Assembly: GCF_009914755.1 (NCBI RefSeq)
Contig: NC_060927.1
Direction: 5' to 3' (one strand)
DNA length: 64,000 nt
Source: the human T2T-CHM13v2.0 reference genome, Homo sapiens
A model generated the notes under the pieces. The model was not told where the DNA came from, ran no database searches, and saw nothing but the letters and a program-made list of their open reading frames with translations. Of the stretch, positions 32,731-35,399 are shown piece after piece (position 1 is the stretch's first letter; the number at the start of each line of letters is the position of its first letter). The position numbers and the translations under genes were made by a program.

Positions 32731-32758
32731 GGCGAGAAACAGAGTCAACCACACACCA

Positions 32759-32782
32759 CTATGGCGGAGAAAGGGAGAGAGA
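32759..32782 (-). promoter_or_regulatory. RPL39L: Splice acceptor of the RPL39L coding exon (exon starts at 32758)
   Basis: tctctctccctttctccgccatag|tggtgtgtgg on the minus strand. Confidence 0.85.
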
Positions 32783-35399
32783 GACAGAGACAATATTACC
32801 ATAGGATAGGATAAGGTAACATGAAGAAATAACAAGACAAGAAAGAGGATCTTTAGTGCCACAGCGAGGGCTCATTGCCACTCAGGATCCCACAGGCAGC
32901 TCAGGAGCAGCTCAGGAGCCAGCAGCGGTCTGAGGAGTCTGATGGCTGTTCTGGTGGATCAGCAGCAAAGGCAGGAGTCCCTTTGTTCCTACTGTTCCTG
33001 ACTTGATGCTACTCATTTCTCAGCAACATACTTCTGCTTCTCTTGTTAAATGTCCATCAAGAGGAATTATTTTCAACTTTAAAAAAGTTACGAACAGGTA
33101 ATACCAGTTCATTACAGAAAAATTAAAGCAATAGAACACTAAAAAAAACTATTATCCCATCTAGCTAGAAAAAGCCCCAATATTAACAACTTGATATTAT
33201 AAGAGCCTTCCAGTTAAGACAGATGTACATGCAGAATATTGTCTTTCTATAAATTGAGATATTGTAGATATTATTTTGTAACTACAACTTATCTAACTAA
33301 TATGTGACCCTTTTTTGGCAACTCTTTCTCAATAACCCTTTACATTTGGAGGTCTTAAATCTTTTCCAGTGTCCTGCTATGGCAAATAGTACAGAACAGG
33401 AAAACATGGTTGAAAATAGAAACCTATAAAACAAGTAATTCATCCCCACAACACTTAAAATATGAATGTATACATTTAAAACATGCGATTTGCTGTAAAA
33501 CTATCTCACGGTACTTTCATGTTACTACTATTTTAAAAGCCACTGGCTGTGCATACTAATATTTTTATCTAATTATCAAAATTGACCACATTGCCATCTA
33601 CTGAATTGCATGCTACCACTCCATTTAAAGATCTTGGGTCCTCCATAATTAACGAACATCAACCTGGGGCCAGAGACACAGTAGTTATTTTTAATGATTC
33701 AGATGCAAAATAATGTCTACATCTCAGATTGTGAGAGTAATTACATGATGGCAGTAAAGTCTTACTGCAAACAGTGTTGGAGATATACAAACAGTATGGA
33801 TCTGTCATGACAAAGGCATTTTTTTTTTAACTCTAAGATAATGGGGATAGTGGTAGTGTGCAAAAAGTATGACTGTTTCTGACTGTCTGAGTTCACACAC
33901 AGTGTCTAACCCAGTCTCTTCAGATGTGACCCAAGCTATTATCTTGGTTTCTGTCTTATGGCTCACTGTTGTGAGATGTTTATTCTATGTCTGGCATCTC
34001 CCCTAACATGCAGGCAGGAAGAAGAGAAAGAAAGAAAGAAAGGCAAAAGAGTACATGCTGTGAGGCTACCGGCTTTTAAGGAGCTTTACTAGGTATCTCT
34101 CTCAATACCTTTGATTACACCTTATTGGCAAGAACTGTGTTCCACTGCCATCCTTAGCAGTAATGAAGGATGGGCACTATAGTTTTTTAGCTGAGCACAT
34201 GATGCCCCTAACCCCACACAAATCAGGTTCTGCTAAAGAAAAAGGAAGAAGAATGAATAGCAGAGTAGATAACTAGCAGTCTTTGCTATAACAATTTTGG
34301 AAAAGATAATTTAGGATACTTCTGTGAATTTCAGCTCTCAAAATAACCAAAAGAAAATAGAGGAAAATTTAAAAAAGAGAAAAAGGAAGTTCTCAATAGA
34401 AATACCTATTAGTCTAGGTATTGAAAAATGGGGTGGAAAAAAAGTCCAAATTGATGGGCAACCCATAAATATCATGGTAAGGAAATACCAGAAGAAATAA
34501 GAGTGCTAATTATACTGTCTGCCTTTCAACCCTAATATCCAAACTTCAGACACTTCTGAGACAACTGCCCTAGTGGGGAGGCCAGTGTCCCCAGATTTGT
34601 ACATCTTCCCACTGGGAACTTTCAGGAGCAGGAGACTTTATGTGCAAGTAACAGATGAGTAGGCAACTAAGTTGGGGTATAGTGTGGGGTGTGGTTGAGA
34701 TACAAATGTTTCATGAAATATAAAACATTGAAAACTAAGCCGCAAGTATCCTTGTAGGAGTCTACAGGTTACGAGAATAACAAATAGGCCTGAAAATGCC
34801 AAATGGGTGATAAAGATAGGGAAAGTACACTACTATTTCTGCCCAATCCTTTTATTTTCTTCCCATACATTAGCAGCAAAGAACTTTTAGCTACCAATCA
34901 CAGTTCATCTTAAATTGACCACATGCTGACTTTAGCTAGCTATCTAGCAGACCCTGTTCTACCCTTTGTATATTAATTCCCTCTATACAATCTATCAGTG
35001 ACTATTTGGCTCCAACCACTTCAGAAAAAAAGTCTTCAAGAATACAGGGAAAGAACTAGACTGGGTTGCCAACAAACCCAGAGTCTTAACACCCTCTCCC
35101 TTGGGAACCCTGGTTGTACTGGTTAGGGTTCTTGAAGCCAATCTTGTTTGAAAGTCTTCTGTAAGAAAAATCTACTGTAGTAAGATAAAGAACTACAGTA
35201 GGACAAATAGTTTACTGTACTATTCCAAGTATTCATTTCCAATGAAGAGGATGATAGTGTGCTCACCTCTGGAGACACTTTGGGCTAGAAGCTCTGACCA
35301 GGTATTTCCTGAAAGCTCAATGCCAGTGACATACAGCTCTTAGCTAGAACTAACTCTCATGGAAACTTTTAAAAAGAAACTCAAAGAGATATCTGCTAT

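What the first reader, a model, noticed from the sequence alone, without database searches (positions are those of the whole stretch)
32731..32792. Ancestral 5'TOP tract recycled as the polypyrimidine tract of a new splice acceptor
Seen: the minus strand reads tctctctccctttctccgccatAG|tggtgtgtggttgactctgtttctcgccATG. From memory, the parental RPL39 5' end is ctcttcctttctccgccatcgtggtgtgttcttgactccgctgctcgccATG. If so, a single C>A change (catCg to catAg) created the AG directly behind the retroposed TOP pyrimidine run. Inference: splicing removes the TOP motif, so RPL39L mRNA would escape the mTORC1/LARP1 control that is established for TOP ribosomal-protein mRNAs. The same change gave the retrocopy access to the upstream promoter.
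Basis: partly seen in the sequence, partly recalled or inferred. Interest (0 to 1): 0.7.

Follow-up and report, generated by a model that had tools for sequence, protein, structure and literature searches.

The report
RPL39L splice acceptor built from retroposed TOP
The coding exon of the human RPL39L retrogene is spliced at an AG made by one base change just behind the pyrimidine run it inherited from the 5' end of RPL39 mRNA; this explains how it reached a distant promoter, but not whether it escapes growth-signal control of translation.

Summary
On the minus strand the annotated exon-3 acceptor AG (32760-32759) follows a 30-nt tract with 26 pyrimidines and lies 28 nt before the ATG. I found the parent RPL39 in the same genome through its intronic SNORA69. 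It reads CG where RPL39L reads AG. Of 31 other human RPL39 retrocopies, 0 have AG there (13 CG, 7 TG, 11 CA). A perfect 10-nt target-site duplication delimits the insert as 32378-32782, so the 22 nt before the AG are retroposed sequence, that is, the former cap-adjacent TOP. This AG is the only one in a 133-nt span that includes the start codon. The evolutionary reading (one C>A change, giving access to an orphan CpG-island promoter 18 kb upstream) is well supported for human. Cross-species timing could not be tested here. The functional inference, escape from mTORC1/LARP1, is not shown. In published HeLa data, RPL39L mRNA falls in LARP1 knockout about as much as TOP mRNAs do. LARP1 also binds it with or without Torin1. 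The gene structure was already in print; I did not find the TOP-to-acceptor detail. Interest is moderate.

The parts
32783..32792 (-). 5' target-site duplication (TGTCTCTGTC); flank-derived distal part of the pyrimidine tract
   Evidence: this 10-mer occurs exactly twice in the 64-kb window, at the two ends of the retrocopy (0.14 expected; 0 of 100 shuffles give 2 or more).
32378..32782 (-). retroposed RPL39 mRNA copy (405 nt), lacking both parental introns and ending in a 5-A remnant after AATAAA (32408-32403)
   Evidence: The parent has introns after its ATG and after codon 36; RPL39L is contiguous across both.
32761..32782 (-). retroposed 5' terminal oligopyrimidine run (17 pyrimidines, 32782-32766) plus GCCAT; now the proximal polypyrimidine tract of the acceptor, and intronic
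   Evidence: It aligns to the 5' ends of the parent exon 1 and of the other retrocopies.
32759..32760 (-). acceptor AG; the A at 32760 replaces the parental C
   Evidence: 0 of 31 other retrocopies read AG here (13 CG, 7 TG, 11 CA). Exon 3 starts at 32758 in RefSeq NM_052969.3 (hub table).
32802..32822 (-). candidate branch points in the non-retroposed flank (strict yUnAy with A at 32812 and 32822, 53 and 63 nt from the AG)
   Evidence: by motif only. No branch point has been mapped.
32731..32758 (-). 28-nt retro-derived 5'UTR retained in exon 3
32575..32730 (-). RPL39L coding sequence (51 aa plus stop)
   Evidence: translation; hub table.
32368..32377 (-). 3' target-site duplication
39430..39493 (-). 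untranslated exon 2 with donor AAG|GTAGGA; single copy in the genome
   Evidence: hub table.
50645..50928 (-). untranslated exon 1 with donor CCG|GTAAGT, inside a CpG island (50600-50999: GC 0.69-0.72, CpG o/e 0.85-0.91); single copy in the genome
   Evidence: hub table.
50717..50724 (-). CCTTTTCC, the only match to the TCT-initiator consensus YC(+1)TYTYY in 50600-51100 on this strand; a possible TOP-like start inside exon 1
   Evidence: Not above chance (3.03 matches per kb window-wide). A lead only.

Best explanation
RPL39L is an L1-type retrocopy of RPL39 mRNA, inserted 18 kb downstream of an orphan CpG island. Its coding exon acquired a 3' splice site inside the retroposed 5'UTR. The former cap-adjacent TOP run and the adjoining target-site duplication form the polypyrimidine tract. 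The branch point lies in the flank. One C-to-A substitution at a parental CpG produced the only AG between that tract and the start codon. Splicing from exons 1 and 2 then places the intact ORF under the upstream CpG-island promoter and leaves the inherited TOP in the intron. Shown here: the sequence anatomy, the parental and retrocopy states, and the insert boundaries. Taken from annotation and print: use of the junction and the distant start site. Inferred: that this substitution was the enabling step. Open: what happens to translational control. The mature mRNA in the RefSeq model has no cap-adjacent TOP, but published data show it still behaves as an mRNA bound by and dependent on LARP1.
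For:: exon borders carry consensus signals; the parent RPL39 on C23 was found through SNORA69; exon 1 reads CG at the site and ends at ATG|GTAAGT; of 31 other retrocopies, 0 read AG (13 CG, 7 TG, 11 CA); 5 of the 31 have an AG elsewhere in the 5'UTR and none has one here; the parental 5'UTR has no AG; a perfect 10-nt TSD at both ends, so the 22 nt before the AG are retro-derived; the previous AG is 90 nt upstream and the next is at +42 of exon 3, 13 nt past the ATG; the flank just upstream has GC 0.39 and CpG o/e 0.16, so it has no promoter-like CpG island; the AG-free run and the pyrimidine richness each fall in the top 0.4% of AGs on this strand. [quoted passage not shown] (Zou 2021, passage): the mouse Rpl39l start codon is 'in Exon3'. 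(Carelli 2016, passages): 75-93% of multiexonic retrogenes gained upstream exons, and 51.5% of novel human retrocopy promoters lie in orphan CpG islands.
Against: No RNA-seq, CAGE or cross-species sequence was available. Use of the junction, the true start sites and the age of the AG therefore rest on annotation and short literature passages. The genome searches scored only 40 of 71 and 40 of 64 candidates, so the 31 retrocopies are a sample. An earlier acceptor in the flank that was later lost cannot be excluded. No strict branch-point motif lies in the usual 18-40 nt range; the candidates sit at 53 and 63 nt.
Confidence: 0.78

Rival explanations
1. RPL39L did not escape. Its mRNA stays under LARP1/TOP-type control, either because transcription in exon 1 starts at a pyrimidine run or because LARP1 contacts inherited 3'UTR and poly(A) features.
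For: (Hochstoeger 2024, Table S1 and section 9): in HeLa LARP1 KO versus WT, RPL39L has logFC -0.568 (P 3.8e-5, FDR 1.0e-3). The 94 TOP mRNAs average -0.68, RPL39 is -1.04 and RPL36AL is -0.570. RPL36AL is a real TOP-started mRNA: 7 of 7 second-generation retrocopies carry its exon-1 sequence and L064 begins at the pyrimidine run. (Hong 2017 supplements): RPL39L is listed as LARP1-bound in growing cells, with PAR-CLIP clusters at transcript positions 505-547 that carry the same flag pattern as an RPL39 cluster lying past its CDS; one TCT-consensus match falls inside exon 1.
Against: The RefSeq 5' end is not a TOP. RPL39L misses that paper's own significance cut (-log10 P 4.4 against 5). The measure is steady-state mRNA level, not translation. 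The TCT match is at chance density. I did not see the column headers of the Hong table.
Confidence: 0.4
2. Removing the TOP by splicing frees RPL39L translation from mTORC1/LARP1 repression.
For: The inherited TOP is intronic. The RefSeq mRNA starts with G. (Smith 2021, Table S3 and passages): LARP1 RIP logFC for RPL39L is 1.04 in control and 1.05 with Torin1, so it is classed 'larp_constitutive'. The paper reports that this class shows no net polysome shift on mTOR inhibition. RPL39 rises from 0.21 to 0.46.
Against: There is no direct measurement. RPL39L falls in LARP1 KO like the TOP class. Its class assignment in Smith 2021 rests on a microarray RIP, and I did not see the column headers of that table.
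Confidence: 0.3
3. The C>A change was not the enabling step. The retrocopy was first captured through another acceptor in the flank, or the flank pyrimidines are what U2AF uses, and the present AG is a later shift.
For: The 10-nt TSD and further flank bases are also pyrimidine-rich. In RPL36AL, the sister rescued retrogene, the acceptor lies in the flank directly 5' of the retroposed end.
Against: No AG exists in the 90 nt upstream. The 19 nt at -3..-21, where U2AF65 normally binds (established knowledge), are all retro-derived.
Confidence: 0.1
4. Most transcripts start at the retroposed TOP itself and the upstream exons are minor.
For: None from my calls. Four overlapping TCT-consensus matches lie in the run and the TSD.
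Against: The flank has no CpG island. RefSeq has a single, spliced model. Gupta & Warner report promoter chromatin marks for the rescued gene and describe only the distant start (passages).
Confidence: 0.04

Closest known systems
Retrogenes that gain untranslated 5' exons to reach distant or orphan CpG-island promoters (Fablet et al. 2009, recalled; Carelli et al. 2016, passages read)
   Same: A monoexonic retrocopy gains new upstream exons from flanking DNA. Its promoter lies in a CpG island not tied to another gene. The ORF stays intact in the last exon.
   Different: Here the acceptor lies inside the retroposed sequence, and its pyrimidine tract is the parent's own 5' regulatory element. 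My searches found no description of this.
RPL36AL, the sister X-derived rescued ribosomal-protein retrogene (Gupta & Warner 2014, passages; locus L060)
   Same: It has a 5'UTR intron and a recruited upstream start, and the start codon is left intact.
   Different: Its acceptor (L060 5367-5366) sits directly 5' of the retroposed end, so the old pyrimidine run stays exonic. Its recruited start is itself a long pyrimidine run. It left 7 second-generation retrocopies; RPL39L exons 1 and 2 left none.
Alu exonization, in which the antisense poly(A) supplies a ready pyrimidine tract and a point mutation makes the AG (Lev-Maor et al. 2003; recalled, not read here)
   Same: A pre-existing pyrimidine run of unrelated origin becomes a splice acceptor after a single base change.
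   Different: The run here is a translational control element of an mRNA, not a repeat tail. The outcome is the main coding exon of a gene, not an alternative cassette exon.
Canonical 5'TOP ribosomal-protein mRNAs such as RPL39
   Same: The ORF, the 3'UTR and the remnant of the TOP sequence in the DNA are shared.
   Different: The run is not cap-adjacent in the annotated RPL39L mRNA.

Membership tests
L1-mediated processed retrocopy | Lacks the parental introns | tested here: met
   Parent exon borders come; RPL39L is contiguous across both.
L1-mediated processed retrocopy | Target-site duplication flanking the insert, with a poly(A) remnant at the 3' end | tested here: met
   a perfect 10-nt direct repeat at both ends, with only 2 matches in the window; five A at 32382-32378, 25 nt after AATAAA.
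U2-type 3' splice site | AG preceded by a polypyrimidine tract, an AG-free zone and a branch-point motif | tested here: met
   26 of 30 pyrimidines, a 90-nt AG-free run, T at -3, and yUnAy at 53 and 63 nt (further away than usual).
U2-type 3' splice site | Used in vivo (junction reads) | not testable with these tools
   Only the RefSeq model (hub table) and the passages bear on this. A search for retrocopies of the spliced mRNA found none.
Retrogene with recruited orphan CpG-island promoter | First exon in a CpG island not shared with another gene | tested here: met
   One search gives the composition. The hub table lists no other gene within 100 kb of exon 1 on that side before 108512. [quoted passage not shown]
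5'TOP mRNA (for the mature RPL39L transcript) | Cap-adjacent C followed by 4-15 pyrimidines | tested here: inconclusive
   The RefSeq start at 50928 reads G-C-G-G, which does not meet the feature. True start sites are unknown. One TCT-consensus site lies at 50724.
5'TOP mRNA (for the mature RPL39L transcript) | Translation repressed on mTOR inhibition in a LARP1-dependent way | not testable with these tools
   Only indirect data exist. The Philippe 2020 data set is not held.

The most novel reading that the evidence does not exclude
One substitution turned a translational control element into a splicing element and so rewired two layers at once. It linked the retro-ORF to an orphan CpG-island promoter. 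It also removed the cap-adjacent TOP, so RPL39L lost the Torin-inducible, cap-dependent mode of LARP1 repression. RPL39L would still keep the constitutive mode of LARP1 binding and stabilisation that depends on the 3'UTR and poly(A). This would let germ cells and tumours make eL39L when mTORC1 is low and RPL39 is silent or repressed.
Probability: 0.25. Interest if true: 0.6.

Novelty: new variant of a known kind. Interest (0 to 1): 0.4.

Why it matters
RPL39L is needed for male fertility in mice and is switched on in many tumours. It is one of three X-derived ribosomal-protein retrocopies that became genes. Knowing exactly how it reached a promoter gives a clean, single-nucleotide example of how a new gene is born. 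It also shows that the TOP run at the 5' end of ribosomal-protein mRNAs (recalled knowledge) can serve as a ready-made pyrimidine tract once retroposed. If the loss of the cap-adjacent TOP does uncouple RPL39L from mTORC1, that would be a simple route to ribosome heterogeneity under nutrient or stress signalling. That part remains untested.

Tried and rejected
**Fossil of the spliced mRNA.**
- Exon 1 and exon 2 each match only themselves in the genome, so no retrocopy of the spliced mRNA confirms the junction or the start site.
- The same approach worked for RPL36AL (7 copies).

**Does the TOP-to-tract arrangement recur?**
- In RPL36AL the acceptor lies in the flank, 5' of the retroposed end. 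It does not recur in this one comparison.

**uATG-free 376-nt 5'UTR as a sign of selection.**
- Only 133 of 20000 mononucleotide shuffles lack ATG.
- But 1461 of 20000 first-order Markov simulations lack it too, so I dropped this.

**TCT-like start in exon 1.**
- There is one match, at chance density.

**Direct Torin1 or TOPscore data.**
- Philippe 2020 is not held.
- RPL39L is absent from the held part of the Fuentes 2021 table, from 2 of 3 Rao 2021 files searched and from the Saba 2024 source data.

**Papers not held.**
- Uechi 2002 and Wong 2014 are not held.

**Prior print of the TOP/acceptor idea.**
- Full-text searches listed no paper whose title or abstract start described it.
- The passages I read do not describe it either. 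The listed papers were not all opened.

**Earlier scan findings.**

Full report
**What is there**

A pyrimidine-rich tract ends in CAT-AG at 32760-32759. Exon 3 of RefSeq NM_052969.3 starts at 32758. The ATG is at 32730-32728 and opens a 51-codon L39-like ORF. The other exon borders carry good signals: exon 1 donor CCG|GTAAGT, exon 2 acceptor TTTTCAG|, and exon 2 donor AAG|GTAGGA.

**The parent**

The window's own assembly could be searched.
- A DNA search with the retrocopy returned at least 40 RPL39 retrocopies but not the intron-bearing parent.
- I located the parent through its intronic snoRNA. Rfam SNORA69 hits C23:118162477-118162608 at 164.9 bits.
- The surrounding DNA holds three exons matching the retrocopy.
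- Parent exon 1 (L054 1750-1699, minus) consists of the pyrimidine run, then ...CCAT-CG-TGG..., then the rest of the 5'UTR and ATG, followed directly by GTAAGT. Exon 2 starts at the second codon.
- RPL39L lacks both parental introns, so its own introns are new.

**State of the site in other copies**

I aligned the 5' ends of RPL39L, the parent and the distinct other retrocopies among the fetched loci. There were 49 hits, which reduced to 32 distinct sequences including RPL39L.
- At the two diagnostic columns the 31 other copies read CG (13), TG (7) or CA (11). None reads AG.
- TG and CA are the two products of CpG decay, so all 31 fit an ancestral CG.
- The RPL39L state needs a C-to-A transversion.
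- Five of the 31 have an AG somewhere else in the 5'UTR. The parent has none.
- The sample is not exhaustive: only 40 of 71 and 40 of 64 candidates were scored.
- At two other 5'UTR positions RPL39L agrees with 26 of 31 and 29 of 31 copies against today's parent. It therefore descends from an older form of the RPL39 mRNA. That does not touch the CG.

**Boundaries of the insert**

- The 10-mer TGTCTCTGTC occurs exactly twice in the 64-kb window, at 32783-32792 and 32368-32377 on the minus strand (0.14 expected). This is a target-site duplication.
- The insert is 32378-32782, ending in five A, 25 nt after AATAAA.
- Hence the 22 nt before the AG are retroposed. Seventeen of them are the uninterrupted pyrimidine run that was the 5' end of the RPL39 mRNA.
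- The next 10 nt upstream are the duplicated target.
- The candidate branch points (strict yUnAy, A at 32812 and 32822) lie in the flank.

**Is it more than chance, and is it needed?**

- The previous AG lies 90 nt upstream. Only 17 of 4611 AG-free runs on this strand are that long.
- Only 18 of 4612 AGs have 26 or more pyrimidines at -4..-33.
- The next AG downstream is at +42 of exon 3, 13 nt past the ATG.
- So this is the only AG in a 133-nt span. Without it, splicing from upstream could not keep the start codon. That it was the enabling change is an inference.

**Promoter**

- Exon 1 sits in a CpG island (GC 0.69-0.72, CpG o/e 0.85-0.91 over 50600-50999).
- The 500 nt upstream of the retrocopy have GC 0.39 and o/e 0.16.
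- Gupta & Warner 2014 (passages) already describe RPL39L as a rescued pseudogene 'in both man and mouse'. They report two 5'UTR introns totalling nearly 18,000 nt and no apparent gene at its start site.
- Zou 2021 (passage) places the mouse start codon 'in Exon3'.
- Carelli 2016 (passages) shows that upstream exon gain and orphan CpG-island promoters are the common route for retrogenes.
- The gene architecture is therefore known. What I did not find in print is that the acceptor's tract is the retroposed TOP and that its AG is a single change at a parental CpG. I looked in the search listings and in the passages I read.

**Comparator: RPL36AL**

RPL36AL lies next to MGAT2, which I found with Pfam PF05060; the locus is L060.
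- Its acceptor (L060 5367-5366) lies directly 5' of the retroposed RPL36A end. This follows from an alignment with 17 RPL36A-derived copies.
- Seven second-generation retrocopies carry RPL36AL exon 1 joined to exon 2. One of them (L064) starts at the long pyrimidine run of its recruited first exon.
- RPL36AL thus kept, or regained, a cap-adjacent TOP by another route. RPL39L exons 1 and 2 left no such copies.

**The functional inference**

The inherited TOP is intronic, and the RefSeq mRNA starts G-C-G-G. A TOP must be cap-adjacent to act (established knowledge; see the abstracts listed). True start sites could not be seen. One TCT-consensus match lies inside exon 1 at 50724, at chance density. 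The consensus is as quoted in PMC10813206.

Published data point both ways.
- **Against escape.** In HeLa LARP1 knockout versus wild type, RPL39L has logFC -0.568 (P 3.8e-5, FDR 1.0e-3). That is just short of the paper's cut of -log10 P 5. The mean of the 94 TOP mRNAs is -0.68, RPL39 is -1.04 and the TOP-started RPL36AL is -0.570 (Hochstoeger 2024, Table S1 and section 9).
- **Also against escape.** Hong 2017 lists RPL39L among LARP1-bound RP mRNAs in growing cells. Its PAR-CLIP clusters lie at transcript positions 505-547. I did not see the column headers of that table.
- **For a changed mode.** In HeLa LARP1 RIP, RPL39L is 1.04 in control and 1.05 with Torin1, classed 'constitutive'. The authors report that this class does not leave polysomes on mTOR inhibition. 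RPL39 rises from 0.21 to 0.46 (Smith 2021, Table S3 row and passages). I inferred the column order from the class definitions.
- None of these measures RPL39L translation after mTOR inhibition.

**Verdict**

- The evolutionary mechanism is well supported for human but undated.
- The claimed escape from mTORC1/LARP1 is unproven and partly contradicted.
- This is a tidy new detail on a known gene and a known kind of event, of moderate interest.

Noticed in passing
L060 5329-7000 (C14, minus); L064-L069, L073: RPL36AL has an acceptor directly 5' of its retroposed end and a recruited first exon that begins with a long pyrimidine run. Seven retrocopies of the spliced RPL36AL mRNA exist in the genome and preserve its exon 1-exon 2 junction.
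   Followed up: partly
window 32731-32758, 39430-39493 and 50645-50928 (minus): The 376-nt 5'UTR has no upstream ATG. This looked significant with mononucleotide shuffles (133 of 20000) but not with a first-order Markov control (1461 of 20000).
   Followed up: yes
window 50717-50724 (minus): CCTTTTCC inside exon 1 is the only match to the TCT-initiator consensus in 50600-51100 on the gene strand. If used as a start, it would give RPL39L a new TOP. Its density is at chance level.
   Followed up: partly
L054 1699-1750 against the retrocopy alignment: Today's RPL39 5'UTR differs from most of its retrocopies, and from RPL39L, at two positions (26 of 31 and 29 of 31 copies agree with RPL39L). The parent therefore changed after most retropositions. 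Only L010 matches the present parent.
   Followed up: partly
window 32384-32779: The RefSeq pseudogene RPL39P19 is the retro-derived part of RPL39L annotated a second time. The target-site duplication places the true insert at 32378-32782.
   Followed up: yes
L026, L027, L030: Three RPL39 retrocopies are split by insertions of about 300-1000 bp, and the matching query ranges overlap by 4-14 nt at the breaks. This looks like later repeat insertions with their own target-site duplications.
   Followed up: no
G000:C17:8235819-8235955 (L052): There is a second genomic match to the SNORA69 model (98.1 bits, above the cut-off), away from RPL39.
   Followed up: no
G000:C23:134073840-134075035 and 134093969-134095164: Two mirror-image MGAT2-like fragments with internal stops lie about 19 kb apart on opposite strands of the X. 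This looks like a pseudogene inside an inverted duplication.
   Followed up: no
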